Virus record (IMG/VR): IMGVR_UViG_3300045988_167732
Span: 32,001 to 96,000 of that record
Length of the DNA stretch: 64,000 nucleotides
Reading direction: 5' to 3' (one strand)
Source of the DNA: a virus
Below, in pieces: positions 17,467 to 29,132 of the stretch. The position numbers and the translations under genes are program-made. The notes under the pieces are model-generated. The model was not told where the DNA came from. It did no database searches and saw nothing but the letters and a program-made list of their open reading frames with translations. Each line of letters starts with the position of its first letter. The stretch's first letter is position 1.

Positions 17467-17589
17467 TTGACACTCACAGCAAATTTATTTTATGTTTTTG
17501 GAATAACGTCGTGTAAGGTTCGACTCCTTATTAACAAATCCCTTGAGCAAGGAATAGTTAACCGTAGATGGCTAGAAAAAAAGTGTTAA
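17467..17589 (+). ncRNA. P1/ACAGCAA structured RNA, copy 1 (contains T-arm-like hairpin)
   Basis: TTGACACT..AGTGTTAA closing stem, CACAGCAA after the 5' arm, internal TAAGG-TTCGACT-CCTTA, A-run before the 3' arm. Confidence 0.65.
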
Positions 17590-17602
17590 GATTGCTCATT
17601 AT

Positions 17603-17688
17603 GCAGATATGGAGTAATGGTATCTCACGGCTCTGCTACAGCCGCTTACCGCAAGGTAATACAGGTTCGAATCCTGTTATCTGCGCCA
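17603..17688 (+). tRNA. tRNA-Ser(GCT), class II, CCA encoded
   Basis: Anticodon loop CTGCTAC, long variable arm, T-loop TTCGAAT. Confidence 0.8.
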
Positions 17689-17809
17689 CAGAATTTATTA
17701 TAGCTGCTCGTAATAAATTCGTAGTATTAGAAGCAGTAAAGGTACGAGTATGGTATCCGGCACGGGAATGGTCGTTAAGGGCGAGATAAAGCTGAGCTCC
17801 CTTTTATAT

Positions 17810-17928
17810 CCTCATTAGTGTAATGGTGCATTCTCGTTAACTGATGTTGAGTAAACACTAAGGTAGCTCCTTAGCGATAACAGCCACATTGGGAGAGGAA
17901 GTTGGTTCGAATCCAATTATGGGGTCCA
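17810..17928 (+). tRNA. tRNA-like gene with a ~45-nt insertion in the anticodon region; isotype unresolved
   Basis: Acceptor CCTCATT/TATGGGG (6 of 7 pairs), T-arm GTTGG-TTCGAAT-CCAAT, T-CCA end, candidate anticodon stem TCTCG/TGGGA flanking a 52-nt segment. Confidence 0.4.
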
Positions 17929-18530
17929 GTAACTACGATACCGTCTTATAAAGATGGAAGTTCGCCTAACAGATGGAGTATCGCTTAATGTTAGGATGTG
18001 TATATGGCGCAACTAAGTTCAGACCGTCCAGAACCTACAACCATATTAGCGGTGACAGCTTGGAGAGACAGCAAATATGCGGAACTGGTGTAGTAATAAA
18101 AATAGCCATGGACAATATTTTTATTATGTTTGGAGTTCGATTCTTCTCTGCCGCTCCAAAAGACAGAATGGTTAGATATTTCTTGATGTCTTTTCAAAAA
18201 ACAAGAAATCCGTAAGATATAGTACGAAACTTATCTTGGAATACAGTTTAGCTGGTTACAATGTATTCGACACTGAACCGCCCTCCAAGTCTGATGGACT
18301 GGTAACAATAGAAAGACCGCTGTTTATTCAATCGGGTGCGTTAAGCCCTTATACAATAACAAGACTGATGATGAAAATGACCAAGATAATTGGGTGCAAG
18401 TTTGCTGAAATATTTCTGTAGACCTCTCCCTAATCGAACCGAGGGCAGATAAGTGGAAAGCTGGTCTGTCAGTAGTCATTAGTTTTTGTTTTGTGTACCT
18501 TTAATAAAATAAAAATAAAAGGGTGTTTTT

Positions 18531-18851
18531 ATGGATTACATTGATAAGCAGTTTGCTAAACGTGGATATAAATTAGTACGTCAAAATGAATATGGCGCTT
18601 ATTATGAAAGAAAAGATAATAAGTTTAATTATACAAGTGAGCTTTGTATTATAGCTAAAGCAAATGGTAAACATCTTATTCAGTGTTATGATGCCCAAGT
18701 AGTTTATGGTCATCCTGAAAAGGATTCTAATAACTATCGTGTTATGAATCAAGTTGATGGAATTGATGCTTCTCTTTCTTTTTGGATTTGGTTAAAGTTT
18801 CATCAGCTTAAACACAAATATAAGTGGGATAAGGTGAAGAAACATGATTAA
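18531..18851 (+). CDS. hypothetical protein
   Basis: ORF after the SD-like AAAGGGTG. Confidence 0.7.
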   Translation: MDYIDKQFAKRGYKLVRQNEYGAYYERKDNKFNYTSELCIIAKANGKHLIQCYDAQVVYGHPEKDSNNYRVMNQVDGIDASLSFWIWLKFHQLKHKYKWDKVKKHD

Positions 18852-19116
18852 GAAATATATTAAGAAGCCAGTTACCATTGAAGCTATTATTTGGGATGGT
18901 GCTAATGAAGCTGAAATTATGGAATTCGTTGGTGCTCATTGCTGTGTTACTACTCAGCATACTATTAATGGTACTGTAACTAATCTTATCATTAATACTC
19001 TTGAGGGAGACCATTATGCTTCTGTTGGCGATTATATCGTTAAGGGAATTAAAGGTGAGTTTTATCCTGTTAAGCCTGATATTATGAAATTGACTTATGA
19101 TGAGGTTACGGAGTAA
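18844..19116 (+). CDS. conserved phage small protein (GDYIV..GE.YP.KPDI..TY motif)
   Basis: Overlapping start. The motif is recalled from other phage proteins of unknown function. Confidence 0.65.
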   Translation: MIKKYIKKPVTIEAIIWDGANEAEIMEFVGAHCCVTTQHTINGTVTNLIINTLEGDHYASVGDYIVKGIKGEFYPVKPDIMKLTYDEVTE

Positions 19117-19553
19117 TGGATACTTCTTTGTTTGAAATTGTAGGTCATTATTATATTTGGACTGGTGAAATTACTAAATTCCGAGTTGATGATATTCTAA
19201 GAGATAAAGAATTTAATTATTGGTATAAGATAGATTCTGAAACTATTGAATATCCTTGGGAAGTTCGCATTTTAGATGCTACTCAAGTTTGGACTAATGC
19301 TGATTGTTATCAAGATAGTACATCGGGTAAATGGATTTATAGATGTATTCCTTATGATGGTTTAATCTTTAGTCTCGAAGCTAATTCTATGACAGAATTA
19401 GTAGACCTTATTAGAGATTTTGTTACTCCTCCTGAAGACAAAGAAGAAGAACTTGTTGCAAGTTCTAATCATAGTTGCTTTACTAATCAGGTTTCGATGT
19501 GCGTAAGAAAAAATTCTGATAAAAATTCTAATAAAGACTTGACAAAGATTTAA
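19116..19553 (+). CDS. hypothetical protein
   Basis: TAATG overlap with the upstream gene. Confidence 0.7.
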   Translation: MDTSLFEIVGHYYIWTGEITKFRVDDILRDKEFNYWYKIDSETIEYPWEVRILDATQVWTNADCYQDSTSGKWIYRCIPYDGLIFSLEANSMTELVDLIRDFVTPPEDKEEELVASSNHSCFTNQVSMCVRKNSDKNSNKDLTKI

Positions 19554-19651
19554 AAGTGTGGTAAGATAAATATATCTTAAGAGAAGAGAAAAATAAAAAC
19601 TTCTCAAAAAGATAAAAAGTAAAAAAGCAAAAAGAAAATTTTAATAAGTGG

Positions 19652-19680
19652 TTGACATCTTAAAGATGATATGCTATAAT
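19652..19680 (+). promoter_or_regulatory. consensus sigma70 promoter driving a P1 element and tRNA-Glu
   Basis: TTGACA-N17-TATAAT, exact consensus. Confidence 0.75.
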
Positions 19681-19716
19681 AAGTGCATAAGTAAAACCTC
19701 CTGATTCATTAAAAAG

Positions 19717-19832
19717 TAGACTCTTACAGCAAATTCCTAAAAAGGTTAACACAATTGTCTGCAAAACAATCATTAGCGAGTTCGATTCTCGTCAGAGGGC
19801 GCTCTGTGGTGAATAATACGCAAAAGAGTCTA
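19717..19832 (+). ncRNA. P1/ACAGCAA structured RNA, copy 2 (T-arm plus closed acceptor-like hairpin)
   Basis: TAGACTCT..AGAGTCTA stem, TACAGCAA, GCGAG-TTCGATT-CTCGT followed by the CAGAG-GGCG-CTCTG hairpin. Confidence 0.7.
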
Positions 19833-19841
19833 GGTTAATAT

Positions 19842-19917
19842 GCTCGGTTAGTCAAGTGGTCTAAGACGGCGGGTTTTCATCCCGTAAACAAGAGTTCGAT
19901 TCTCTTACCGAGTACCA
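19842..19917 (+). tRNA. tRNA-Glu(TTC), CCA encoded
   Basis: Anticodon loop TTTTCAT, T-loop TTCGATT. Confidence 0.8.
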
Positions 19918-20092
19918 TTATTCAAATCAGAAATCCGTTCTTATGATAGTGAGAGTAAGTTTTATCGGATTTAAATGAGGGGAACTTAAATCTATCGAAG
20001 GGTTAAGAAATAATTGTTTGACGAAAAGTTGTTTCTCCTTTCTCTCTATCTGATATGAATAATTTCCTTTCTGTAAGATGATATTTATAAAG

Positions 20093-20224
20093 TAGAGACT
20101 AACAGCAATTTTGAAAATATGTTAAAAAGCCAAGCTCCCATTCTTCGGTTCGAATCCGAACGTCTTCAGTTGAAGTATGTAGCCAAGTGGTTTAAGGCAG
20201 GAGTCCATAACAACAATGTCTCTA
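20093..20224 (+). ncRNA. P1/ACAGCAA structured RNA, copy 3 (circularly permuted tRNA-like fold)
   Basis: TAGAGAC..GTCTCTA stem. Order of parts: GCTCC, T-arm TTCGG-TTCGAAT-CCGAA, short closed acceptor hairpin CTTC-AGTT-GAAG, D-arm-like AGCCAAGTGGTTTAAGGC, then GGAGT pairing back to GCTCC. Confidence 0.7.
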
Positions 20225-20232
20225 GTATTTAT

Positions 20233-20375
20233 GCCCGTGTAGCTCAGTAGGAAGAGCACTTGCCTTGATGGAGTAGTATAAGAAATACATCCTATAAAGG
20301 AAGGTGTGAGTTCAAATCTCATTTTCATCACCGTTAAGCAAGGAGTCGAGAGTTCGAGCCTCTCCACGAGCACCA
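20233..20375 (+). tRNA. tRNA-Lys(TTT) (alternative reading Asn-GTT) interrupted by a 67-nt tRNA-like element
   Basis: Canonical D and T arms, anticodon stem CTTGC/GCAAG, discriminator A plus CCA, one C-A mismatch in the acceptor. Removing 20267-20333 leaves CTTTTAA. Confidence 0.65.
20267..20333 (+). ncRNA. nested tRNA-like element (ACCG end)
   Basis: GATGGAG/TTTCATC acceptor, GTAT-AAGAA-ATAC D-arm, GTGAG-TTCAAAT-CTCAT T-arm. Confidence 0.65.
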
Positions 20376-20411
20376 ATAGCAGAAATGCTAATTTTGTAAT
20401 GACTTCAATAG

Positions 20412-20474
20412 TAGACGCTTGCAGCAATTTTAATTGTACTTATCTGTTAAATAAGAATGCATAAAAAGCGTCTA
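20412..20474 (+). ncRNA. P1/ACAGCAA structured RNA, copy 4 (minimal, 63 nt)
   Basis: TAGACGCT..AGCGTCTA 8-bp stem, TGCAGCAA, A-run before the 3' arm. Confidence 0.6.
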
Positions 20475-20503
20475 GCCCCTTTCTAAAAGGAGAAATTAAA
20501 AAT

Positions 20504-20588
20504 GGGTGAGTAGTGAATCGGCAAACACGGGAGTCTGTAAAACTCTTTCTTAACGGAGTAGAAGGGTCGGCACCTTCCTCACCCACCA
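20504..20588 (+). tRNA. tRNA-Tyr(GTA), class II, CCA encoded
   Basis: Anticodon loop CTGTAAA, long variable arm, unusual T-loop GTCGGCA. Confidence 0.8.
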
Positions 20589-20607
20589 CTTTAAAGGAGA
20601 AAATATT

Positions 20608-20778
20608 ATGGGTTTCATGGGAGAAATTTCAGAAGATATTGGTTGGAATGATTGTATTAATTATCTTCTAAAGAATGTTGATAAATTTCAAGAGACTTTA
20701 GATGGTGGAGCTTATGATTATTTTCCCGACGAAGAAATCAAAGAAGCTTTAAAGAAGCTAATTAGACCAGAAATCTAA
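20608..20778 (+). CDS. hypothetical small protein (56 aa)
   Basis: AAAGGAG SD 7 nt upstream of the ATG, TAA stop. Below the ORF-track size cutoff. Confidence 0.55.
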   Translation: MGFMGEISEDIGWNDCINYLLKNVDKFQETLDGGAYDYFPDEEIKEALKKLIRPEI

Positions 20779-20800
20779 TAAAATTTTTGTTTTAAAACTC

Positions 20801-20829
20801 TTGACAAAATGAAAATTTTGCGCTATAGT
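20801..20829 (+). promoter_or_regulatory. sigma70-type promoter
   Basis: TTGACA-N17-TATAGT. Confidence 0.7.
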
Positions 20830-20907
20830 AAAAATATGATAAAGATACAAATTTATTTGTAAGCTAATTGTTCATTTTTTATTGTTCATAAAAGCATTCC
20901 TTTCAGG

Positions 20908-21036
20908 TAGACTCTAACAGCAACTTTACAATCACAAATGCTATGGGCCTGTTTGTTGGAGGTTCGAATCCTTCACTCCCGACCATCGGGAGTTAGCTCA
21001 ACGGATAGAGCAACAGATTTTGTAAAAATGAGTCTA
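20908..21036 (+). ncRNA. P1/ACAGCAA structured RNA, copy 5: circularly permuted tRNA (3' half-ACCA-T-5' half)
   Basis: TAGACTC..GAGTCTA stem. GGAGG-TTCGAAT-CCTTC T-arm, ACTCCCG-A-CCA, one T, then CGGGAGT-TA-GCTC..GAGC D-arm and a U-rich anticodon-like segment. The acceptor is a perfect 7 bp. Confidence 0.7.
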
Positions 21037-21099
21037 GTCAATAAATTAATAAATTGACGCTCCTATTTTTCTAATAGGCAAATATAAATTCCTTTCAAG

Positions 21100-21215
21100 T
21101 AGACACGTACAGCAAAATTACTTGATGCTTTAATATGGAAAATTAACGATAAGGTTCGACTCCTTAATCTTCTTTTGAAGATGCGTGGTTGCTGGAAATC
21201 AAAAAAACGTGTCTA
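21100..21215 (+). ncRNA. P1/ACAGCAA structured RNA, copy 6 (T-arm plus closed acceptor-like hairpin)
   Basis: TAGACACG..CGTGTCTA stem, CAGCAA pairs with TTGCTG, TAAGG-TTCGACT-CCTTA followed by ATCTTC-TTTT-GAAGAT. Confidence 0.7.
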
Positions 21216-21225
21216 GGTTAAGTAT

Positions 21226-21310
21226 GGCTGAGTGGCGAAATTGGCAGACGCAGTTGCTTCAAGTACAACCCTCGAAAGAGATGTGGGTTCAAGTCCCACC
21301 TCAGCTACCA
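21226..21310 (+). tRNA. tRNA-Leu(CAA), class II, CCA encoded
   Basis: Anticodon loop TTCAAGT, long variable arm, T-loop TTCAAGT. Confidence 0.75.
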
Positions 21311-21852
21311 AAGTTACAGTTCAATTGGCAGATAGCGAATGTAACTTATATTAAACTGCCCGATTCAGCAAGGATGGCTAAAGCCTTGTCGGTGTTCCAT
21401 ATATTTGAACTCATCTTTAGTCCGTTAAGCTAAAGCCCCAACGCCCGTCCGAAGTCTTGGAGTAGAGAACAAGTGAATGGTTCTCGAACGCAAAGTAAGC
21501 TGTCACAAGCTGAAAAAGGCTATAAGCCGCACATGGGTAGAACACAGATATATGGTGAGAGATGTTAGGGTGCGAATGTAACATCAAAAACCTACAGCGA
21601 AAAGCTATACGGAGAAGTCTGTGCCGTGTTTACGGGAATAGGTAGTTGCGTACCTATTCAAACAAAAACTCTGATTACTGCAACTAAATCGGGGTAGGTA
21701 TTGAGGTTATGGGTCATGTAACCTTAAAACACAATAAGCCGAGCATACTGCTTATTGCTCCTAACAGGTGGTGCTGAGGATGAACAACAAAAGCCAAGTT
21801 ATAGAGTTCTTGTAAAAAACTCTGTTGCTATTTGAAAGAATAGCTCAATTAT

Positions 21853-21928
21853 GGGCCTGTAACTCAGTTGGGAGAGTGTCTGCTTTGCACGCAGGAAGTC
21901 GCAAGTTCAAGTCTTGTCAGGTCCACCA
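21853..21928 (+). tRNA. tRNA-Ala(TGC), CCA encoded
   Basis: G3-U70 pair present, anticodon loop TTTGCAC. Confidence 0.85.
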
Positions 21929-22384
21929 TAAGAGTTAGTTGCTCTCTTAGGATAAAAAAAGCACCGTATTAACACGAGTTTACGATAATTAACTGGCCCT
22001 CGTCTGCGGGTAAACAGCAGTTTTAGGCTACTATAAGCCGAAGTTTTAAGGGCAGTTTCTTTAAAAAACATGCATATGGTTTTTCTTGTTATCTCTTTTT
22101 TATCCTAAAAATAGACGTAGCAGCATGACTTGAGGCTATACATCAAGCTCCTGAGACCGAAGAAAAAAAGCTCCCTGTATCGTCAATGGGAAAATAATCT
22201 ATCTGTTCCGTAATAACAGGTGGGAGGGAGTATTTTAGGTCGGCAAGACCACGAGAGGATAGCGCTGTTCTCTCAACCCTTTGCAAAGGTTGCTGATGGG
22301 TTTTCCAAACGGATGTGGAAATTAAATGAATGGAAGGGTATAATTCAGCCCAAAATCAGCTCTAAAATTCAAGAAAATATATTT

Positions 22385-22462
22385 GGGTGTGTAGTTCAGT
22401 CTGGTCAGAACACTTGACCGTTAATCAAGGAGTCGAAGGTTCAAATCCTTCCATACCCGCCA
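22385..22462 (+). tRNA. tRNA-Asn(GTT), CCA encoded
   Basis: Anticodon loop CCGTTAA, discriminator G. Confidence 0.8.
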
Positions 22463-22815
22463 AAAGTGGAGAGTGTAGGTTCGAGTCCTGCCCCGCTCGT
22501 GGGAAACCCTTGCAGGAAGCTGTTAGGTACAGCGCCACTTAGAATTTCTTTCACCTTATTACGCGAAATATGGGATTGAGATGTTGCTTTAGTCGGGTTC
22601 TTTTACAGCAGAAAATAAGAACGCACCTGTTTAATTGGGTTTTTCAGCACAGTAAAAACAAGAAAAACCTCGGTTGTTTAGAAATTTTCTTCTGATATTG
22701 AACGAAAACAAATAGAGAATTCTCTCATTGCAATGCCGAAAGGTAGTAAGTTACGAATTTACCCATGATAAATTACGAACTTGCTACCGAGTAGGGATAA
22801 GAGAGAATTAAACAT

Positions 22816-22891
22816 GCTTTGGTAGCTCAATTGGTAGAGCAGTGGACTGAAAATCCACGTGTAGCTAGTTCGATTCTGGCCTAAAGCACCA
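22816..22891 (+). tRNA. tRNA-Phe(GAA), CCA encoded
   Basis: Anticodon loop CTGAAAA. Confidence 0.85.
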
Positions 22892-22892
22892 T

Positions 22893-22976
22893 TGCTGGCG
22901 AGTGAAACGGATATATAAATCACGCTTGGCTCATACCCAAGTAATAGTGGGTTCGACTCCCATGCTTCAGCAACCA
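22893..22976 (+). tRNA. tRNA(CAT) (Met or Ile2 type) with extended acceptor stem and large D-loop
   Basis: Anticodon arm CTTGG-CTCATAC-CCAAG, T-arm GTGGG-TTCGACT-CCCAT. Two extra nucleotides between the T-stem and acceptor imply an 8-9 bp acceptor. Confidence 0.55.
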
Positions 22977-23000
22977 AAAAACAAAAGGAAGTAAATTCTA

Positions 23001-23306
23001 ATGACTGATTTTAAGACTTACATTTATTAGACAGCAAGTAATAAAAAGTTTGTTTATAGATGTCCTCATTGTAATAAAGGGATAATGCAAGTAGTAGAAA
23101 CAAAAATTGCTAAAAATGAAACTAATATTTTATCTTGGAATTATACTTGCCCAGTTTGTAAGAAAACGATTGTCTCTATTGAAAAAGATGGTTGTTCTTG
23201 CTTTAAGAGTGTGTTCCCTCCAATGACTCAAATTAGTGATAAAGAATTTGCTGATATTAAAAAGAATGTAGGAGAGAAAGATATTTATCTGTTCTCTGAA
23301 ACATAA
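23001..23306 (+). CDS. zinc-ribbon protein (1 in-frame TAG)
   Basis: ATG 23001 follows AAAGGAAG. In frame with track ORF 23085 across a single TAG. CPHC..CPVC. Confidence 0.7.
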
Positions 23307-23313
23307 AATAAAT

Positions 23314-23408
23314 GCTAGCGTACAGAAGTGGTCATAACTGCCATCACTTGAAATGATGTGTGACGGCTTGTATCCGTCTCGTGAGTTCGAATCTTACCGC
23401 TAGTGCCA
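23314..23408 (+). tRNA. tRNA-Ser(TGA), class II, CCA encoded
   Basis: Anticodon loop CTTGAAA, long variable arm. Confidence 0.8.
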
Positions 23409-23427
23409 TGGAAAAAGGAGATTAAAA

Positions 23428-23943
23428 ATGAGCAATAATAATTCAATCGAAATCGAACGTAAGTTTTTAATCTCTGGTTTTCCTAAAGTCGATTTTGATG
23501 AAGTCGGAATTGTTAAAACTATCTATATTAATATCAAATATAATTCTGATGGAAAAATTTTACAGGAAATTCGTATAAGACGTTGGTTTGAAAGTGGCAA
23601 AGGTTATCGTCCAGATGCTCTTACTTTTAAATCTGGTGGTACTTTAATTCGTACCGAAATTGAAACAAATCTTACAGATAATTCTTTGTTTGACTGTTTT
23701 AATGAACTTGGTTATAATCCTATTGTAAAAGATTATAGAGGTCTTTACAATAATGGTTGTTTAATTGAATTTAATCTTGTAGATGGCGGAACTGATACTG
23801 CTTTCTACTATGCCGAAGTTGAATTCAATTCTGAGGAAGAAGCTAATAGTTTTGTTTGGCCTTTTCCTGAAGTATTTATTGAGGAAGTTACTAATAAGCT
23901 TGAATATAAGATGGCAAATTATTGGAAACGTACTCGTGGATAA
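23428..23943 (+). CDS. CYTH-domain protein (triphosphate tunnel metalloenzyme)
   Basis: N-terminal IEIERKF carries the ExExK signature. Confidence 0.75.
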   Translation: MSNNNSIEIERKFLISGFPKVDFDEVGIVKTIYINIKYNSDGKILQEIRIRRWFESGKGYRPDALTFKSGGTLIRTEIETNLTDNSLFDCFNELGYNPIVKDYRGLYNNGCLIEFNLVDGGTDTAFYYAEVEFNSEEEANSFVWPFPEVFIEEVTNKLEYKMANYWKRTRG

Positions 23944-23966
23944 GGACTTTTATTAGTCCTTTATTT

Positions 23967-24098
23967 GCTTTCGTGGCTCAATCGGTAGAGCGCCTGATTT
24001 GATAGAGTGACAGAATGTATTGTCTTAGTTTGCAAGTTCAAGTCTTGCCTTTATCACCAGTAATCAGGATGTTGCAGGTTCGAGTCCTGTCGGAAGCT
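23967..24098 (+). tRNA. tRNA-Thr(TGT) interrupted by a 59-nt tRNA-like element; host CCA not encoded
   Basis: Acceptor GCTTTCG/CGGAAGC, anticodon stem CCTGA/TCAGG. Removing 24001-24059 leaves TTTGTAA. Confidence 0.75.
24001..24059 (+). ncRNA. nested tRNA-like element (ACCA end)
   Basis: GATAGAG/CTTTATC acceptor, GACA/TGTC D-stem, 7-nt linker, GCAAG-TTCAAGT-CTTGC T-arm, A-CCA. Confidence 0.7.
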
Positions 24099-24161
24099 GG
24101 GAACAAGGTCAAGCCTTCACGTTGGCGTTCCTGTTTAAACTAATTGACTAAAAGAGGTTTT

Positions 24162-25037
24162 ATGAAATATTGTCTCAATTGTGGTAAAGAATTAAATAAA
24201 CAAGTAAAAAAATTTTGTGATAATAAATGTTTTGTTGAATATTAGTATCACAAATATATTAAAAACTGGAAGCTTGGTAAAATTACAGGGGTCGTTGGTT
24301 TTGGGGTTAGTAAATATATAAGAAGATATTTATTAGAAAAGTATAATTATTCTTGCCAAGAATGTGGTTGGAATAAAATTAATCCTTATACTAATAAAAC
24401 ACCTTTGGAAATTCACCATAAAGATGGAAATTATTTAAATTGTTCAGAAGAGAATTTAGCTTTGCTTTGCCCCAACTGTCATTCTTTAACAGATACTTAT
24501 AAATCTTTGAATAGACCAGAAATGAGAAGAGATAGAACAAGATACAATCAAAGACCCAATCCTTTTTTTGATGAATTAAATTGTGATAAGAAAGAAAAGA
24601 AAAAATATTTTTGTCCGGTTTGTGGCAATGAAATAACCCGCAAGGCAAAATTATGTCTTAATTGCAGAAAAAAGGAAAATTTGAAAAACTCTAATAAACC
24701 CTCTAAAGAAATTTTAATGGAAGAATCTAAAAATTTTGTCTCTTATGTAAAATTAGGGGAAAAATATGGGGTATCTGACAATACTATTAGGAAGTGGTTC
24801 TCAAGTTACGATTTGCCTCTTCCTAAAAGGGAAAAAGCAGAATATAAACCAAAAGTCTACCATCCAGAATATTAGGTTTATACAACAAGAAAAACAGCTA
24901 CAGGATGGGAAAAATACTTAAAATTGGGTCAGCATAAAATTGCTCGATATGTTCCCAACCATACTGTTTCTCAAATAGAAGATTACATAAAAATTTTTTA
25001 TGATGAAGCTGTGAAAAAAGGAATTATTAATAAATAA
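24162..25037 (+). CDS. HNH homing endonuclease (2 in-frame TAG)
   Basis: N-terminal CLNCG..C..C ribbon, HHKDGN..N..NL..LCPNCH HNH core. The frame continues through TAG at 24873 to TAA 25035. Confidence 0.8.
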
Positions 25038-25068
25038 TAACAAACAAAAAAGAAATTTTAAAAAGTAC

Positions 25069-25097
25069 TTGACAAGATGAAAAGTATATGTTATACT
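25069..25097 (+). promoter_or_regulatory. sigma70-type promoter
   Basis: TTGACA-N17-TATACT. Confidence 0.7.
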
Positions 25098-25129
25098 TAA
25101 GATGTGGTTGAGAGATACAACCTAAAAAT

Positions 25130-25205
25130 GCGGCAGTGTGGAAGCGCTATCCAGCCTACGCACCGAACGTGGGAGTCGCCAGTTGGAATCTGGTCTGCCG
25201 CTCCA
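25130..25205 (+). tRNA. tRNA-Arg(CCG)-like, non-canonical (A33, 6-bp anticodon stem)
   Basis: Acceptor GCGGCAG/CTGCCGC, D-arm TGGA/TCCA, CCTACG-CACCGAA-CGTGGG, T-loop TTGGAAT, T-CCA. Confidence 0.5.
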
Positions 25206-25341
25206 ATTCCTTAGTAGTTTAAAAGACGATAAACAAATTAAAATACCCTTCAGTCGGAAAGCCTCTAATGAGTATAGAATGGCACTCAAGTAGGGAGTTC
25301 TGGATGGGCGAATCGGAACCACCAGCTAAGGAAAAATATAT

Positions 25342-25416
25342 AGGGGTATAGCCAAATGGTGAAGGCAGCGGTCTTTGACGCCGCCATTAAAGGTTCGAAT
25401 CCTTTTATCCCTGCCA
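25342..25416 (+). tRNA. tRNA-Gln(TTG), CCA encoded
   Basis: Anticodon loop CTTTGAC, T-loop TTCGAAT. Confidence 0.8.
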
Positions 25417-25445
25417 TAAGCAACAATTCAAATTATCGTTTAACG

Positions 25446-25564
25446 TAGACGCTTACAGCAAACAATAATAAAATCAAATTCTATAAAAAAGATTTATGGT
25501 ATTGTTCCTTGCTAATTAGTTTATGATGCTTTCATGATTCTCCTTTGTTAGTATTATGCGTCTA
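25446..25564 (+). ncRNA. P1/ACAGCAA structured RNA, copy 7
   Basis: TAGACGC..GCGTCTA stem, TTACAGCAA. AGCAAACAATA can pair with TATTGTTCCTTGCT. Confidence 0.6.
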
Positions 25565-25572
25565 GTTTATAA

Positions 25573-25639
25573 GTGCCGTACCAAGGTTGGAGCTACTCGA
25601 CGGAGAACTTAAGAAGGGGTTCGAATCCCCCACGGTGCA
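25573..25639 (+). ncRNA. tRNA-like minihelix RNA (acceptor plus T-arm, no clear anticodon arm)
   Basis: GTGCCGT/ACGGTGC acceptor, T-loop TTCGAAT. The central 35 nt does not fold as D and anticodon arms. Confidence 0.45.
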
Positions 25640-25696
25640 AGATTGAATTGTTTGGAGTACTACAAACAAGATGGTAAGTTATTGATGATTTAAAAG

Positions 25697-25759
25697 TAAA
25701 CCCTTACAGCAATTTAATTATTTAATTTTTGCTTGAAAAAAGATTAAGGATAGGGTTTA
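25697..25759 (+). ncRNA. P1/ACAGCAA structured RNA, copy 8 (minimal)
   Basis: TAAACCCT..AGGGTTTA stem, TACAGCAA. Confidence 0.6.
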
Positions 25760-25779
25760 GTCCTGTAATGTTGAAAAAG

Positions 25780-25865
25780 TAGACACATACAGCAATTAAA
25801 ATAAAAATACTGGGAAATATATTTAATTGGAATAAATACTTTTTTTAGATTTTTTATTGTGTCTA
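25780..25865 (+). ncRNA. P1/ACAGCAA structured RNA, copy 9
   Basis: TAGACACA..TGTGTCTA stem, TACAGCAA. Confidence 0.6.
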
Positions 25866-25876
25866 GGATTTTATAT

Positions 25877-26010
25877 GCTGATATAGCTCAATAGGTTAGA
25901 GCTTCCGACCACGAAATAGCTTAAGAAAAGCAAAGGATGTAAGTTCAAATCTTACTTTCGTGACCATTATAATCGGAGGGTTGAGTGTTCGAGCCACTCT
26001 ATCAGCACCA
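25877..26010 (+). tRNA. tRNA-Ile(TAT) interrupted by a 57-nt tRNA-like element
   Basis: Canonical arms, anticodon stem TCCGA/TCGGA, A-CCA end. Removing 25910-25966 leaves CTTATAA. Confidence 0.75.
25910..25966 (+). ncRNA. nested tRNA-like element (ACCA end, no anticodon arm)
   Basis: CACGAAA/TTTCGTG acceptor, GCTT-AAGAA-AAGC D-arm, 7-nt linker, GTAAG-TTCAAAT-CTTAC T-arm, A-CCA. Confidence 0.75.
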
Positions 26011-26107
26011 TTTAAATACAGGTAGCATTGGAGTAATTAACCAATGAGAAAATAATGCCCAAACATTAAGCTGTATTTTTTAAAAATTCTTTTGGGAGGA
26101 TTAAAAA

Positions 26108-26905
26108 ATGATTGAGTTAACTGAAGAACAGAAAAAATTAGAATTGTCAAATGATAATTGGAAAATTGTTCCAAATTGGTCAAGATATGAAGTAAATTAG
26201 TATCGGATTCTACGAAACAAAAAAACCAAACATATTTTAACATCAAAAGATAATAAGAGAGGATATTTAATTTATCTTGTTCTTAGAGATGATGATAACA
26301 GAATTCACATTTTGTCAAAACATAAAGCTGTAGCTTTGGCATGGGTTCCCAACCCCTAGAATTTACCTATTATAAATCACAAAGACGAAGACAAATTAAA
26401 TTGCTTTTATTAGAATTTAGAATGGTGTACAAGCAGTTATAATAACAGTTACAACGGGACAGGTAAAAAGAGAAGTGAAAAATTTAAAAAGACTTTTTTT
26501 GTTTATGATTCTGAGCGGAATTTAATAGAAAAAAGAAAAGGCATAAATGAATTTTGCGCAGAAAATAATTTATCTTCTCGGTGTGCTAGTTCTATTTTAA
26601 AAAAGAATAGTGAAGAAGAAAAATGTTATAGTATAAAAGGATTTTATCTTTTTTACGAACAAATAACAAAAGAAGATTTTTTATAGAGAAAGCAAAAAGT
26701 TTTTAATATAGGGAATTTAGGCAAAAAGAAATTTTCTAAAAAAGTTTATCAATATGATTTACAAAACAATCTTCTTCAAATTTATTCTAGTGTACATGAA
26801 GTTAAAGAGAAAAATGATTTAGCTACAACGTCAGTAATAAGTGCTTGTTGTAGAAATAAAATAAAAACTGCTTATGGATATAAATGGAGTTATGTTCCAT
26901 TATAA
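26108..26905 (+). CDS. HNH/NUMOD-type homing endonuclease (4 in-frame TAG)
   Basis: W..VPNWSRYEV, GY..YL, VHR-like KHKAVALAWVPNP, NHKDEDKLN..NLEW, C-terminal AYGYKWSY. All lie in one frame broken only by TAG. Confidence 0.8.
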
Positions 26906-26919
26906 ACAAAAAAATAAAG

Positions 26920-26987
26920 TAGACTCTTACAGCAATTACTTAGAGACTTGTGATTTGGGATTACATATGTTTTGAAAAATGAGTCTA
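26920..26987 (+). ncRNA. P1/ACAGCAA structured RNA, copy 10 (minimal)
   Basis: TAGACTC..GAGTCTA stem, TTACAGCAA, A-run before the 3' arm. Confidence 0.6.
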
Positions 26988-26997
26988 GCTTTATTAA

Positions 26998-27078
26998 GCG
27001 CCTGTAGTCTAATTGGATAAAACAGCACTCTTCTAAAGTGTATTTTTTATACGAGTTCGAATCTCGTCAGGCGTACCA
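26998..27078 (+). tRNA. tRNA-Arg(TCT), CCA encoded
   Basis: Anticodon loop CTTCTAA, T-loop TTCGAAT. Confidence 0.8.
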
Positions 27079-27153
27079 TGAGGAGTAGCATAGCGGCAAA
27101 TGCACTAGTCTCTAAAACTAGGTAAACAGGGTCGGCACCTGTCTCCTCTGCCA
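27079..27153 (+). tRNA. suppressor tRNA, anticodon CTA (reads UAG)
   Basis: Anticodon arm CTAGT-CTCTAAA-ACTAG, T-arm ACAGG-GTCGGCA-CCTGT, G-CCA end. D-loop, anticodon arm and T-loop closely resemble the phage tRNA-Tyr, but the long variable arm is missing. Positions 1:72 form a T-T mismatch. Confidence 0.75.
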
Positions 27154-27159
27154 GATATT

Positions 27160-27196
27160 GAGGGAATTAAATAAAAAATCTTAATTCCCTCTTTTA
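27160..27196 (+). terminator. intrinsic terminator closing the tRNA array
   Basis: GAGGGAATTAA..TTAATTCCCTC 11-bp stem followed by TTTT. Confidence 0.8.
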
Positions 27197-27278
27197 TATA
27201 AAAACAAAAACAAAGCAAACAAAAAACTAAAGTAAAACAAACAAAGTAAAACAAAGAAATTAAAGGAGACAAAAAATT

Positions 27279-27734
27279 ATGTGTGACAACTGCAAGAATG
27301 ACATTTCCCGACCGTCTAACTCTTCCATTGCTTATGGTGTTTATGAGAGTGGTGGCGTAGTCAAGGCTGAGGTAACTGATACTGCATTTGATGCAATGCA
27401 TGTTATTACTCGTCTTTGTGAAAAGGCTGATATGAAGACTATTTCTCTTGAAGGTATTTGGGAGAACACTCTTCTTGAAAACAGCTATCGTGGTAAGGCT
27501 AAGGTAAACCATGCTGATGGTGATAAGTTCGTTGAGGACATTGGTAAGGAGTTTGCTCGTGGCAAGGCTCTTGAAAAGTATCATCGAGCATTTGACCGTA
27601 AGATTCTTGCAATGCTTCTTGATGCACGAGTTTTGGTTGCAACCATTGAACACTATTGTGCTAAGAAGAGCATCAACACTGAAAAGATTCCTTCGATTGA
27701 AGCGATTTCTAAGAAGCGCTTTGGTTGTAAGTAA
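27279..27734 (+). CDS. hypothetical protein
   Basis: AAAGGAG SD; AAG/CTT-type codon usage. Confidence 0.75.
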   Translation: MCDNCKNDISRPSNSSIAYGVYESGGVVKAEVTDTAFDAMHVITRLCEKADMKTISLEGIWENTLLENSYRGKAKVNHADGDKFVEDIGKEFARGKALEKYHRAFDRKILAMLLDARVLVATIEHYCAKKSINTEKIPSIEAISKKRFGCK

Positions 27735-27905
27735 TTAAAAACAAAAGTAATTTATCCAAAATTTTCATAAATTCACTCCAAAAAGAGGAAGAGGTCGAAT
27801 GGCTTCTTCCTTTTTTTACACATTTTTTTGTAGAATTCTTTAATAAATGCTTGACAAGAAAAGATATCTATGGTAATATCTAAACAAATAGAAAGGAGAG
27901 TTGTT

Positions 27906-28319
27906 ATGGCAATTAACAATGCAATTACATACGGAGAAGTCGAGGAATTTTTCTCTACTCTTATGTCTTCTGAGACTCCTAAGATTCGTAAGTATCATGT
28001 TTATGGAATGTATCAGCGCGAACAAGAGAATGAAAAGAAAGTTGCTGAGTTTGAAAAAGCCGCAGGAGCAACTAAGGGTCCTTGGCGTTATTTTGGCACG
28101 ATGATTGGAGAGGACATGTGTGTTCTTACCCTTACTCAGCGTGAAGATACAGAATATTATTTTCCTGCTTATAAAGACAAAGACGGGAAAATTCATGTTG
28201 GTCTTGAAGGCTACAAAGAATTTGATTTTGCAGTTCTTGCTTGTGTAGCTTATAAGTATACAAATTCTACAAATTCAATTCCTTGGATTTGCAAATTAAT
28301 TGATAAAGAGGTAAAATAA
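27906..28319 (+). CDS. hypothetical protein
   Basis: ATG 27906 follows AAAGGAGAG. The track start at 27870 lies inside the promoter. Confidence 0.7.
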   Translation: MAINNAITYGEVEEFFSTLMSSETPKIRKYHVYGMYQREQENEKKVAEFEKAAGATKGPWRYFGTMIGEDMCVLTLTQREDTEYYFPAYKDKDGKIHVGLEGYKEFDFAVLACVAYKYTNSTNSIPWICKLIDKEVK

Positions 28320-28320
28320 A

Positions 28321-28686
28321 ATGCGTAAGCTTAATACGATTCAGAAGAGAAACAACCTTAATACTGTGTACGCAGTTGATGAAAAGGGCATTGGTAATGC
28401 CAACCATGTTTACAATGTTATTGTAACTGATGGTCAGGGTAATGAGACTCCATACTCTATTGCTTTCCAGAATGGTCCTCGCAAGGAAATGAATTCAATT
28501 CATGGACTTCTTGACACAGACCTTCTTGAGATTGTTCGTGACCGTATTCAGGGTTTCCAGTCTGGCGAGTTTGCTTGCCGTGAGAATGCGATTGCACTTA
28601 CTCATCTCGAAGAGTGTTTGCTCTGGATGAATCTTCGTGTTGAAAATCGTGCAGAACGTGGAGTACTTGGTACTTCTAATAAGTAA
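28321..28686 (+). CDS. conserved phage protein of unknown function
   Basis: The QNGPRKE..NG..D..LL.IV.DR..GFQSG.F.CREN..AL.HLEE..LW...R pattern is recalled from many phage genomes. Confidence 0.7.
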   Translation: MRKLNTIQKRNNLNTVYAVDEKGIGNANHVYNVIVTDGQGNETPYSIAFQNGPRKEMNSIHGLLDTDLLEIVRDRIQGFQSGEFACRENAIALTHLEECLLWMNLRVENRAERGVLGTSNK

Positions 28687-28691
28687 TTAAG

Positions 28692-29132
28692 ATGGATAGA
28701 AATAATCTTACTGTAATTAAAGGGGGGAAGGATGAAAATTCTTCTCCTTCTTTAGAAAATAGACCAATTCCAAAGTGCAAATTCTGTTCTCAGCCAATGA
28801 TTGCTGGAGAGAAAGATACCTATTATTGCACTTGTAAGAATTATTTGTCTTATTTACGTTTATTAGAGCAAATGCAAAAGTTAGAAGAGACTTATAAAAC
28901 CAATATGGCTACTTATCAATCTATTGCTCAAAAGCTTTTGCAGGATTCTGATTACTACAAAAAGGTAATTGCTCTTACAAGAAAGAGACAGGAAGAAGAA
29001 AAAGAAGAAAAAAGCAATCCTAAGAAGCCAGTAAAGGTAATTGATTTTACAGAAATAAACAATAATAAAAACAAGACAAAAGCTGAGAACGATGATATTT
29101 TAGGATATTATTGGTTCCCTCCAATTAACTAA
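28692..29132 (+). CDS. hypothetical protein
   Basis: 146-aa ORF with a CxxC..CxC ribbon and a coiled coil. Confidence 0.7.
   Translation: MDRNNLTVIKGGKDENSSPSLENRPIPKCKFCSQPMIAGEKDTYYCTCKNYLSYLRLLEQMQKLEETYKTNMATYQSIAQKLLQDSDYYKKVIALTRKRQEEEKEEKSNPKKPVKVIDFTEINNNKNKTKAENDDILGYYWFPPIN

What the first reader, a model, noticed from the sequence alone, without database searches (positions are those of the whole stretch)
23967..24098. Third interrupted tRNA: Thr(UGU) with a 59-nt nested tRNA-like element ending ACCA
Host anticodon stem CCTGA/TCAGG encloses TTT, the insert, then GTAA. The insert at 24001-24059 has acceptor GATAGAG/CTTTATC, D-stem GACA/TGTC, a 7-nt linker in place of the anticodon arm, T-arm GCAAG-TTCAAGT-CTTGC and an A-CCA end. 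Removing it leaves TTTGTAA. Here the insert encodes CCA while the host tRNA does not (its end reads ..CGGAAGC-T-GGG).
Basis: seen in the sequence. Interest (0 to 1): 0.85.

Follow-up and report, generated by a model that had tools for sequence, protein, structure and literature searches.

The report
tRNA-shaped intron inside phage tRNA-Thr
A gut jumbo-phage threonine tRNA gene is split in its anticodon loop by a 59-base miniature tRNA look-alike, one of a family of such inserts in sister phages whose ends look made for the cell's ordinary tRNA-trimming enzymes, hinting at an undescribed way of splicing tRNAs in bacteria.

Summary
Window 23967-24098 is a tRNA-Thr(UGU) gene whose anticodon loop (UUU|GUAA) holds a 59-nt element at 24001-24059. 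The element has an acceptor stem, D arm, T arm and A-CCA tail but no anticodon arm, and on its own it passes Rfam's tRNA threshold.

It is not a one-off. The window has four such genes (Gly-UCC, Lys-UUU, Thr-UGU, Ile-UAU). The window and 20 of 23 related IMG/VR loci hold 48 nested elements in six isoacceptors. Every insert runs from acceptor base +1 to 4 nt past the acceptor helix, usually NCCA. The position in the loop varies (32/33, 34/35, 35/36, 36/37). Removal always restores a canonical 7-nt loop. Thirteen sister phages carry the intact tRNA-Thr at the same site. Across 16 genomes each isoacceptor is present exactly once, either intact or interrupted.

Best reading: an intron removed at the RNA level. 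I infer, without direct evidence, that RNase P defines its 5' end, a tRNA 3'-end endonuclease defines its 3' end, and an RNA ligase joins the exons. No ligase was found in the window.

Closest precedent: the unexplained "enigmatic" tRNA introns of Lak megaphages (Devoto 2019), which have a different layout. I class this as a new variant of a known kind.

The parts
23967..24000 (+). 5' exon of tRNA-Thr(UGU): acceptor strand GCTTTCG, D arm, anticodon-stem strand CCTGA, loop nucleotides U32 U33 U34
   Evidence: the spliced sequence is called tRNA-Thr tgt by ARAGORN
24001..24059 (+). 59-nt tRNA-like insert (putative intron): acceptor, D arm and T arm, no anticodon arm, A-CCA tail
   Evidence: (Rfam tRNA 32.7 bits, gathering score 29); identical copies in L049 and L050
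24001..24007 (+). Insert acceptor 5' strand GATAGAG. Its first base is the 5' exon/insert junction, the predicted RNase P site.
24009..24024 (+). Insert D arm: GACA-GAATGTAT-TGTC. This arm is shared with the 87/88-nt inserts of L011 and L013.
24032..24048 (+). Insert T arm GCAAG-TTCAAGT-CTTGC, directly abutting the acceptor 3' strand to give a 12-bp minihelix
24049..24059 (+). Insert acceptor 3' strand CTTTATC, discriminator A and CCA. The 3' junction lies directly after CCA.
24060..24098 (+). 3' exon of tRNA-Thr(UGU): loop G35 U36 A37 A38, stem strand TCAGG, variable loop, T arm, acceptor strand CGGAAGC, discriminator T. No encoded CCA.
24144..25037 (+). HNH homing-endonuclease ORF with 2 in-frame TAG codons. 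An ortholog follows this host-type-plus-insert allele in every assembly examined.
   Evidence: Pfam HNH; TAG count; orthologs after the interrupted allele in L013/L058, L049 and L050
16560..16704 (+). Sister case: tRNA-Gly(UCC), loop CUUCC|AA, interrupted at 36/37 by a 69-nt tRNA-like insert (16597-16665, tail T-CCA)
   Evidence: the insert is an Rfam tRNA hit at 41 bits
20233..20375 (+). Sister case: tRNA-Lys(UUU), loop CUU|UUAA, interrupted at 34/35 by a 67-nt tRNA-like insert (20267-20333, tail A-CCG)
   Evidence: 41 bits
25877..26010 (+). Sister case: tRNA-Ile(UAU), loop C|UUAUAA, interrupted at 32/33 by a 57-nt tRNA-like insert (25910-25966, tail A-CCA)
   Evidence: 43.2 bits
26108..26905 (+). 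Second HNH endonuclease ORF (4 in-frame TAG codons), directly downstream of the interrupted tRNA-Ile
   Evidence: (among the IMG/VR loci, an ortholog only in L011, again after its interrupted tRNA-Ile; one search finds it also in L072, a second copy of the same contig)

Best explanation
**What it is.** The 59-nt element is an intron of a tRNA-shaped kind sitting in the anticodon loop of a functional phage tRNA-Thr(UGU) gene. It belongs to a family of related, gain-and-loss-polymorphic inserts of 50-121 nt. In this clade of roughly 105-220-kb gut phages they occupy the anticodon loops of six U34 tRNAs: Gly-UCC, Glu-UUC, Gln-UUG, Lys-UUU, Thr-UGU and Ile-UAU.

**Shown by sequence comparison.**
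- The intron is defined by its own fold, not by the host. Its first base is base +1 of a 7-bp acceptor-like helix stacked on a T arm.
- Its last base is always 4 nt past that helix, usually NCCA.
- This holds wherever in the loop it sits.
- Deleting exactly this unit always restores a canonical loop.

**Proposed mechanism (inferred, not shown).**
1. The precursor folds as a tRNA within a tRNA.
2. RNase P cuts at the intron's +1, leaving a 3'-OH on the 5' exon.
3. A tRNA 3'-end endonuclease cuts after the CCA, leaving a 5'-phosphate on the 3' exon. I propose the RNase Z/BN type, which from my own recollection cuts after CCA in some bacteria.
4. The two exons stay held together by the host tRNA's acceptor and anticodon stems.
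5. An ATP-dependent, Rnl1-type RNA ligase seals the nick. Its source, phage or host, is unidentified.
6. A free CCA-ended mini-tRNA is released.

**Likely reason it persists (inferred).** It behaves as a selfish or mobile element. In the Thr and Ile cases it travels with an adjacent HNH homing endonuclease, whose target the insertion would disrupt.
For: **Anatomy.**

**Family and boundary rule.**
- An unbiased scan found 48 nested elements. Every residual loop is one of CTTATAA, CTTCCAA, CTTTCAC, CTTTGAC, CTTTTAA or TTTGTAA, all with U33 and A37.
- All 48 in-silico spliced hosts are called canonical tRNAs by ARAGORN.
- Insert positions are 32/33, 34/35, 35/36 and 36/37.

**Empty sites.**
- Thirteen loci carry an intact tRNA-Thr(UGU) at the same place. 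L011 and L013 carry an 87/88-nt homolog at the identical TTT|GTAA site.
- The joined exons recreate a block (about 30 nt) of the anticodon arm and adjoining D stem that matches uninterrupted tRNA-Thr genes in 39 stretches of unrelated viral contigs: the 25-nt search pattern matched exactly in all 39, and most extend to 29-30 identical bases.

**Evidence that the interrupted genes function.**
- In 16 genomes x 6 isoacceptors (90 covered cells), each tRNA is present exactly once, intact or interrupted. Forty-four are interrupted.
- Ile-UAU is interrupted in all 16 genomes. L010 and L011 have 5 of 6 interrupted.
- Host types differ by compensatory changes.

**Evidence for RNA-level constraint on the insert.**
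- 11 of 12 acceptor/T-stem pairs show changes on both sides. Slid controls pair at only 38-52%.
- Compensatory and G-U-preserving changes are seen between homologous inserts.
- Elements are found on the + strand only.

**Link to tRNA end processing.**
- 19 of 20 tRNA genes in this window encode CCA, and so do the inserts.
- Lak phage tRNA genes and their introns both lack CCA, on my reading of Table S6.
- A CCA-less host gene implies that RNase Z and CCA-adding activities are present in the infected cell.
- The zero-spacer Arg/suppressor tRNA pair shows that CCA|+1 junctions are used in this array.

**No known ribozyme.** No known ribozyme or group I intron was detected.

**Ligase plausibility.** Jumbo phages commonly encode ligases that act on 5'-phosphate/3'-OH ends (PMC7824862).
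Against: - **No ligase found.** No RNA ligase, RtcB or polynucleotide kinase was found by Pfam or PHROGs in any window ORF of 70 aa or more, or in the 10 kb upstream and 8 kb downstream. About 140 kb of the genome was not examined.
- **CCA and RNase Z.** In some bacteria CCA blocks RNase Z (my own knowledge). The phage's host is unknown.
- **Tail variants.** Some family members have tails CCG, CAA, TCA or CCT at the same 4-nt distance. This suggests a ruler-like cut rather than recognition of CCA, or that those copies are decaying.
- **Lak introns do not fit the simple model.** They have a roughly 30-nt 5' hairpin leader that RNase P alone could not remove.
- **Weak thermodynamics.** The insert's fold is not unusually stable taken alone (z = -1.5).
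- **No expression evidence.** No RNA-level data of any kind were examined.
Confidence: 0.5

Rival explanations
1. Dead genes. The inserts are scars of a DNA-level mobile element. The interrupted tRNAs are pseudogenes that are never repaired, and the phage relies on host tRNAs.
For: - Phage tRNAs are often dispensable (my own knowledge).
- The inserts show presence/absence polymorphism like any mobile DNA.
- Some tails are degenerate: CCG, CAA, TCA.
- No ligase was found.
Against: - Exons stay intact and cloverleaf-competent in all 48 cases, with compensatory changes between host types.
- Ile-UAU is interrupted in all 16 genomes by two different inserts, yet it is conserved.
- No second intact copy of any interrupted isoacceptor is seen in any array. 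Some genomes would then have lost 5 of 6 of their A/U-rich-codon tRNAs.
- Insert boundaries are always in register with a tRNA-like fold. A DNA transposon has no reason to respect that.
Confidence: 0.1
2. The small RNA is the product. The host tRNA is only a processing scaffold. RNase P and a 3' nuclease release a CCA-ended mini-tRNA, for example a decoy for defence toxins that attack tRNA acceptor or CCA ends. The tRNA halves are by-products and are not rejoined.
For: - The inserts are under RNA-structure constraint and keep NCCA.
- The same array carries other tRNA mimics, the YrlA-like RNAs.
- No ligase was found.
Against: - This does not explain why excision always restores a perfect 7-nt anticodon loop with U33 and A37.
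- It does not explain why the interrupted gene is the only copy of its isoacceptor.
- It does not explain why exon sequences remain tRNA-competent.
- A mini-tRNA gene could simply stand alone, as the zero-spacer tandem tRNAs do.
Confidence: 0.15
3. Real intron, different chemistry. A dedicated phage endonuclease, or an unrecognised self-cleaving activity of the tRNA-like fold, measures from the 12-bp minihelix and cuts both junctions. This leaves 2',3'-cyclic phosphate and 5'-OH ends, which an RtcB-type ligase joins.
For: - The 3' cut is at a fixed 4-nt distance even when the tail is CCG, CAA, TCA or CCT. This fits a ruler better than recognition of CCA.
- Lak introns need a cut that RNase P cannot make.
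- RtcB is common in bacteria and occurs in some jumbo phages (PMC7824862).
Against: - No splicing-endonuclease, RtcB or known ribozyme signature was found in the window or the arrays.
- There is no bulge-helix-bulge geometry at the junctions.
- The parallel between encoded CCA in tRNA genes and in introns points to ordinary tRNA end processing.
Confidence: 0.2

Closest known systems
Lak megaphage tRNA introns (Devoto et al. 2019, Nat Microbiol, PMC6784885)
   Same: - Phage tRNA genes (Thr-TGT, Gly-TCC, Phe-GAA, Tyr-GTA) are interrupted in the anticodon loop.
- Sister genomes carry intron-less alleles.
- The Thr(TGT) intron 'itself may encode a tRNA'.
- The authors call them 'enigmatic' and propose no mechanism.
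   Different: - Lak introns are 79-141 nt.
- They start with a roughly 26-31-nt hairpin leader plus an A/U-rich linker before the tRNA-like part.
- They end 1-2 nt after the acceptor helix, with no CCA (my reading of Table S6).
- Here the tRNA-like unit is flush with both exons and ends in NCCA. It occurs at four different loop positions and in a different phage clade (33% GC, roughly 105-220 kb, versus 26% GC and 540 kb).
Group I introns in bacterial and phage tRNA anticodon loops
   Same: They are inserted at various positions of the anticodon loop, are polymorphic, and are often associated with homing endonucleases.
   Different: They are self-splicing ribozymes of about 200 nt or more with a P1-P9 core. 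Here the insert is 59 nt, there is no Rfam group I hit, and the fold is tRNA-like.
Archaeal and eukaryal tRNA introns (bulge-helix-bulge, splicing endonuclease plus RtcB or Trl1)
   Same: They are protein-spliced introns in or near the anticodon loop, and some occupy non-canonical positions.
   Different: They are defined by a bulge-helix-bulge motif formed with the exons. Here the junctions are 0 and 4 nt from the intron's own terminal helix, there is no such motif, and no endonuclease homolog was found.
mascRNA/MALAT1-type tRNA-like elements and mitochondrial 'tRNA punctuation'
   Same: A tRNA-like fold embedded in a longer transcript is cut out by RNase P at the 5' end and RNase Z at the 3' end. 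Small armless tRNA-like RNAs of about 55-60 nt are produced (my own knowledge).
   Different: Those flanks are not rejoined. Here the flanks are the two halves of another tRNA and would have to be ligated.
Split and permuted tRNA genes (Nanoarchaeum, Cyanidioschyzon)
   Same: tRNA halves are joined in the anticodon-loop region after processing.
   Different: Those systems use bulge-helix-bulge processing, and the halves lie on separate or permuted genes. No nested tRNA mimic is involved.
HDV-like theta ribozymes next to phage tRNAs (Kienbeck et al. 2024, PMC10879173)
   Same: They are small structured RNAs that abut tRNAs in gut phages with TAG recoding and are thought to process tRNA ends.
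   Different: They lie 3' of tRNAs, not inside them, and have a double-pseudoknot fold. No HDV-like hit is found here.

Membership tests
Phage tRNA introns with an embedded tRNA-like element (Lak type, Devoto 2019) | Insertion within the anticodon loop of a phage-encoded tRNA gene whose removal restores a normal tRNA | tested here: met
Phage tRNA introns with an embedded tRNA-like element (Lak type, Devoto 2019) | Closely related genomes carry the same tRNA without the insert (empty site) | tested here: met
   (13 empty-site loci)
Phage tRNA introns with an embedded tRNA-like element (Lak type, Devoto 2019) | The intron contains a tRNA-like fold | tested here: met
   (32.7 bits, gathering score 29)
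Phage tRNA introns with an embedded tRNA-like element (Lak type, Devoto 2019) | Lak layout: a 5' hairpin leader of about 30 nt plus an A/U linker before the tRNA-like part, and no 3' CCA | tested here: not met
   Sequences compared. Here there is no leader and there is an NCCA tail.
Group I intron (Rfam RF00028) | Conserved P3-P9 catalytic core, length of about 200 nt or more | tested here: not met
   The insert is 59 nt. No hit at E<=1 in 12000-29000, none at E<=0.1 in the L011 array, and none at gathering score in the L010, L018 and L023 loci.
Archaeal/eukaryal bulge-helix-bulge tRNA intron | Two 3-nt bulges separated by a 4-bp helix at the splice sites | tested here: not met
   The junctions lie 0 nt 5' and 4 nt 3' of a 7-bp intron helix. 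The 5' side has 1-5 unpaired nt, varying by case.
Archaeal/eukaryal bulge-helix-bulge tRNA intron | A cognate splicing endonuclease (EndA/Sen) is present | tested here: inconclusive
   None was found in the window or in 18 kb of flanks. The rest of the genome and the host were not examined.
tRNA (Rfam RF00005), applied to the insert itself | Score at or above the gathering threshold | tested here: met
   (32.7 bits against 29). Sister inserts score 41-43 bits.
tRNA (Rfam RF00005), applied to the insert itself | An anticodon arm, so that it can decode | tested here: not met
   Eighteen model positions are replaced by 3 nt, and a 7-nt linker takes the place of the arm. It is a tRNA mimic, not a decoding tRNA.
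RNase P / RNase Z substrates (tRNA-like excision, mascRNA type) | A 12-bp acceptor/T minihelix with a T loop and a single-stranded 3' tail | tested here: met
   The T stem is flush with the acceptor 3' strand in all 48 elements. Covariation supports this.
RNase P / RNase Z substrates (tRNA-like excision, mascRNA type) | Actual cleavage at +1 and at the 3' end by these enzymes | not testable with these tools
   This needs in vitro cleavage assays or end mapping.
Self-cleaving ribozymes near phage tRNAs (HDV-like/theta, hammerhead, twister and others) | A match to a known ribozyme covariance model | tested here: not met

The most novel reading that the evidence does not exclude
Phages of bacteria have a protein-dependent tRNA splicing pathway in which the intron is itself a tRNA mimic. 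The cell's own tRNA end-processing enzymes, RNase P and a 3' endonuclease, act as the 'splicing endonuclease'. A 5'-phosphate/3'-OH RNA ligase of the tRNA-repair type then seals the anticodon loop. The released CCA-ended mini-tRNAs may in addition serve as decoys against tRNA-targeting defences. This would be a third mechanistic class of tRNA intron, beside group I and bulge-helix-bulge introns, and it would explain the 'enigmatic' Lak introns.
Probability: 0.4. Interest if true: 0.85.

Novelty: new variant of a known kind. Interest (0 to 1): 0.72.

Why it matters
Bacterial-domain tRNA introns are thought to be self-splicing group I ribozymes. Protein-spliced tRNA introns are considered an archaeal and eukaryal trait.

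A family of 50-121-nt introns is too small to self-splice by any known mechanism. If their ends coincide with the RNase P site and the mature 3' end of a nested tRNA mimic, a simple prediction follows: RNase P, a 3' endonuclease and a repair ligase together amount to splicing. That could be tested with three purified enzymes and a T7 transcript.

The finding would:
- give a mechanism for the unexplained Lak megaphage introns
- give phage RNA-repair ligases a housekeeping role
- affect phage tRNA annotation, because standard tRNA finders miss these genes: 4 of the 20 tRNA genes catalogued here
- possibly explain how selfish elements and homing endonucleases colonise tRNA arrays

Tried and rejected
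**Alternative identities tested and rejected.**
- Group I intron, HDV-like/theta or other known ribozyme. Rfam E-value and gathering scans of the window array and four loci gave only tRNA hits and sub-threshold YrlA hits.
- Bulge-helix-bulge intron. The junction geometry does not fit.
- Assembly artefact. Rejected, because the identical 59-nt allele occurs in two other assemblies and the family occurs in dozens of contigs.
- Chance. Rejected by the minus-strand and shuffle controls.

**Searches that led nowhere.**
- Hunt for an RNA ligase, RtcB or polynucleotide kinase. I ran Pfam on all ORFs of 70 aa or more, reading TAG as sense. I ran PHROGs on the smaller window ORFs between 644 and 52204 (roughly 8,000 aa). 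I also took precomputed Pfam hits for 10 kb upstream and 8 kb downstream. Nothing was found. The only candidates with related chemistry are a Thg1-like protein (11010-11834) and an NAD-dependent DNA ligase upstream. Neither is known to seal RNA loops.
- GenBank phage megablast of the array gave no match.
- An exact search for the 59-nt insert in IMG/VR gave none. A degenerate search of metagenomes then found it.
- A strict link between insert and homing endonuclease was only partly borne out. The HNH always accompanies the 'type-2' Thr host plus insert, but not the L011 allele, and not the Gly or Lys cases.
- The DUF2828/VWA protein (39375-41144) has no sequence match in the PDB.
- Literature searches for a mechanistic follow-up to the Lak introns found none in the held library.

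**A tool caveat.** ARAGORN's intron mode finds these genes but places the boundaries wrongly. It calls this gene Ile-GAT and the Gly gene Trp-CCA. I did not rely on those calls.
Full report
**1. The observation**

- Positions 23967-24000 are the 5' part of a tRNA: acceptor GCTTTCG, D arm, anticodon-stem strand CCTGA, then TTT.
- Positions 24001-24059 are a 59-nt element:
  - acceptor GATAGAG/CTTTATC
  - D stem GACA/TGTC
  - 7-nt linker
  - T arm GCAAG-TTCAAGT-CTTGC, flush with the acceptor 3' strand
  - tail A-CCA
- Positions 24060-24098 continue with GTAA, TCAGG, the variable loop, the T arm, CGGAAGC and T. GGG follows, so the host has no encoded CCA.

Three tests agree with this reading.
- The element's minimum-free-energy fold is precisely this three-helix shape. 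Its energy alone is not remarkable (z = -1.5).
- Scanned by itself, the element scores 32.7 bits against Rfam's tRNA model (gathering score 29), with the anticodon arm deleted.
- Standard ARAGORN misses the host gene. After in-silico removal of the insert, ARAGORN calls it tRNA-Thr(UGU).

**2. It is one of a family**

The window is a phage-like, single-strand tRNA array (13.4-27.2 kb) with 16 ordinary tRNAs, including a CUA suppressor. Rfam also reported three short 'tRNAs' of 54-66 nt. Each of these lies inside another interrupted tRNA:
- Gly-UCC, 16560-16704, insert 16597-16665
- Lys-UUU, 20233-20375, insert 20267-20333
- Ile-UAU, 25877-26010, insert 25910-25966

Using the ORF immediately upstream of the Thr gene, I fetched 23 related IMG/VR loci from contigs of 105-216 kb. 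I then scanned all sequences without reference to tRNA identity. The scan required:
- a 7/7 acceptor helix
- a 5/5 T stem flush with it
- a tail of one base plus three
- a flanking 5-bp stem leaving 7 loop bases

This returned 48 nested elements. Their residual loops are only CTTATAA, CTTCCAA, CTTTCAC, CTTTGAC, CTTTTAA and TTTGTAA. All have U33 and A37 and a U34 anticodon. All 48 spliced hosts are called canonical tRNAs by ARAGORN: Ile-UAU 16, Gly-UCC 10, Gln-UUG 10, Lys-UUU 7, Thr-UGU 3, Glu-UUC 2.

The controls are clean.

| Sequence scanned | Nested hits |
|---|---|
| Window, + strand | 4 true + 1 chance |
| Window, - strand | 0 |
| All sequences, + strand | 57 |
| All sequences, - strand | 0 |
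| 100 dinucleotide shuffles | 0.04 per window |

**3. Boundaries**

The insert always runs from acceptor base +1 to the fourth base past the acceptor helix. That tail is NCCA in most cases. The position within the host loop differs by class:

| Position | Host tRNA(s) |
|---|---|
| 32/33 | Ile type A |
| 34/35 | Thr, Lys type A |
| 35/36 | Lys type B, Gln |
| 36/37 | Gly, Glu, Ile type B |

The splice sites are therefore set by the insert's own fold, not by the host.

Independent confirmation comes from empty sites.
- Thirteen sister loci have an intact tRNA-Thr(UGU), with loop TTTGTAA or CTTGTAA, directly after the same ORF.
- L011 and L013 carry an 87/88-nt homolog with the same D arm at the identical TTT|GTAA site.
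- The joined exons of the window's gene recreate a block (about 30 nt) of the anticodon arm and adjoining D stem that matches uninterrupted tRNA-Thr genes in 39 stretches of unrelated viral contigs: the 25-nt search pattern matched exactly in all 39, and most extend to 29-30 identical bases.
- The identical 59-nt allele occurs in two further assemblies. A new 87-nt variant with tail T-CCG and compensatory changes occurs in three more.

**4. Functional or dead?**

Across 16 genomes and six isoacceptors (90 covered cells), each tRNA is present exactly once at its syntenic place. It is either intact or interrupted, never both and never absent.
- 44 cells are interrupted.
- Ile-UAU is interrupted in all 16 genomes, by two unrelated inserts at two positions, in four host-sequence types.
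- L010 and L011 carry 5 of 6 interrupted.

Host types differ by compensatory changes and stay cloverleaf-competent.

The inserts are also under RNA-level constraint.
- In 18 distinct acceptor/T cores, 11 of 12 pairs show changes on both sides. Slid controls pair at 38-52%. The caveat is that the scan demanded pairing.
- Homologous inserts differ by compensatory or G-U-preserving changes. Ile type A has CACGAAA/TTTCGTG against CTCAGAA/TTCTGGG, and Thr has GATAGAG/CTTTATC against GGTAGAA/TTCTATC.
- Inserts in different tRNAs share T-arm and D-arm sequence. They are therefore related and have moved between tRNA genes.

Together this argues that the interrupted genes are the working copies and that the insert is removed at the RNA level.

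**5. Mechanism (inferred)**

The unit excised is exactly what tRNA end-processing enzymes recognise: a 12-bp acceptor/T minihelix with a T loop and a 3' NCCA.

I propose four steps.
1. RNase P cuts at +1.
2. A tRNA 3' endonuclease cuts after the CCA.
3. An ATP-dependent ligase seals the resulting 3'-OH/5'-phosphate nick in the anticodon loop.
4. The host tRNA's own stems hold the exons in place throughout.

Support:
- 19 of 20 tRNA genes in the window encode CCA, and the inserts do too.
- In Lak megaphages neither the tRNA genes nor the introns carry CCA, on my reading of Table S6.
- The CCA-less host gene implies RNase Z and CCA-adding activity in the infected cell.
- A zero-spacer Arg/suppressor pair shows that CCA|+1 junctions are processed in this array.
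- Jumbo phages commonly encode Rnl1/Rnl2 ligases that need just these ends (PMC7824862).

Weaknesses:
- No RNA ligase, RtcB or kinase was found in the window or in 18 kb of flanks. About 140 kb of the 220,795-bp scaffold was not examined.
- CCA inhibits RNase Z in some bacteria (my own knowledge).
- Tails CCG, CAA, TCA and CCT occur at the same 4-nt distance. This hints at a measuring enzyme, or at decaying copies.
- Lak introns have a 5' hairpin leader that RNase P alone cannot remove.

**6. Why it might persist (inferred)**

The array is rich in homing-endonuclease ORFs that carry in-frame TAG codons.

An HNH ORF follows the interrupted Thr gene in every assembly that has this host type plus insert: the window, L013/L058, L049 and L050. 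A second HNH follows the interrupted Ile gene in the window and in L011. The link is not universal. An insert in the anticodon-loop DNA could protect the allele from its neighbouring endonuclease, as in 'collaborative homing' of group I introns (my own knowledge).

**7. What is known**

The closest precedent is Devoto et al. 2019 (PMC6784885).
- Lak megaphages have tRNAs with 'enigmatic introns'.
- The Thr(TGT) intron 'itself may encode a tRNA'.
- Empty-site alleles exist.
- No mechanism was offered.

I found no later mechanistic work in the held library.

The present family differs from the Lak introns in these respects:
- there is no 5' leader
- the tRNA mimic is flush with both exons
- the 3' tail is NCCA
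- it occupies four loop positions
- it occurs in a different phage clade, a human-gut scaffold with 33% GC

It is not a group I intron, a bulge-helix-bulge intron or a known ribozyme.

**8. Verdict**

- The finding is a new variant of a known but unexplained kind.
- Confidence that it is a genuine RNA-level intron of a working tRNA is about 0.8.
- Confidence in the RNase P / 3' endonuclease / ligase route is about 0.5.

Noticed in passing
window 20931-21029 and about 20129-20215; also L011 7412-7510: There are two tRNA mimics of the YrlA (bacterial Y RNA) type. Each has a T arm, an acceptor helix closed by a loop (ACTCCCG-ACCAT-CGGGAGT) and a D arm, with the flanks pairing. Rfam YrlA scores 41.4 and 38.6 bits, below the gathering score of 69. 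The second window copy was seen by eye only. They could also be read as permuted tRNA halves.
   Followed up: partly
window 39375-41144: A 589-aa protein has DUF2828 plus a DUF7788/VWA domain. It may be a Ro60/TROVE-like partner for the Y-RNA-like elements, but it has no sequence match in the PDB, so this is unproven.
   Followed up: partly
window 17810-17928 (conserved in L002-L015): An odd tRNA-like gene has acceptor, D and T arms and a T-CCA tail. Its anticodon region is replaced by about 45-57 nt containing a hairpin CTAAGG-TAGCT-CCTTAG. The GGTAGCTCC motif recurs in the 87/88-nt Thr inserts of L011 and L013. ARAGORN gives inconsistent anticodons for it.
   Followed up: partly
window 22892-22975: A tRNA-Met/Ile(CAU)-like gene directly abuts tRNA-Phe. 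It has an oversized D loop (GTGA-AACGGATATATAAA-TCAC). Rfam scores it 27.6 bits, just under threshold. The same element occurs in L011 at 9288-9350.
   Followed up: no
window 26998-27153: tRNA-Arg(UCU) and the amber suppressor tRNA(CUA) are fused head to tail with no spacer (...ACCA|TGAGGAG...). One RNase P cut would therefore make both the CCA end of one and the 5' end of the other.
   Followed up: no
window 7463-8389, 10130-11020, 24144-25037, 26108-26905, 38833-39303: In-frame TAG codons (9, 7, 2, 4 and 5 respectively) are concentrated in homing-endonuclease ORFs (GIY-YIG/NUMOD, LAGLIDADG, HNH x2) and one unknown ORF. Most other genes have none. TAG read-through by the phage suppressor tRNA seems to be confined largely to selfish genes.
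   Followed up: partly
window 11010-11834, 2565-3683, 12292-12819, 23428-23943: Several genes bordering the tRNA array have possible RNA-related roles:
- a Thg1-like 3'-5' nucleotidyltransferase
- a NifS/IscS-like cysteine desulfurase
- a dual-specificity-phosphatase-like protein
- an ORF with an EIERKF motif that looks CYTH-like (by eye only)

None is a known ligase.
   Followed up: partly
window 3680-6388; 8391-9650; 6636-7355; 15545-16018: A UvrD-like helicase is interrupted by an intein. There is also a WGR+PARP protein, one Pfam-supported macro-domain protein (6636-7355) and a second ORF (15545-16018) that looks macro-like by eye and matches a PHROGs 'phosphatase' family but no Pfam family, pointing to an NAD/ADP-ribose system. 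NADAR and LigA lie just upstream of the window (L024).
   Followed up: no
window 31504-32052, 33301-33933, 34340-34777, 37825-38424: Four paralogous ORFs share the N-terminus MKQIR(K/R)NVFETNSSS-H-L. They have no Pfam family; one of them (37825-38424) matches a PHROGs family of unknown function (phrog_28997) and 33301-33933 was not run against PHROGs.
   Followed up: no
window 62183-63514: A TnpB/Cas12f-like (OrfB_IS605) ORF with one in-frame TAG lies in the phage genome.
   Followed up: no
L033 (IMGVR_UViG_3300035517_000267), minus strand 2835-2940: A further family member occurs in another contig. It is a 106-nt tRNA-like insert (tail T-CCA) at 36/37 of a tRNA-Glu(UUC). It shares the T arm GATGTAAGTTCAAATCTTA with the Gly and Ile inserts.
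   Followed up: partly
window about 20060-20125, 20895-20935, 21085-21100: A repeated motif, TTCCTTTC..GTAGA(C)..AACAGCAA.TTT, precedes the Y-RNA-like elements and follows hairpin terminators. It may be a phage promoter.
   Followed up: no
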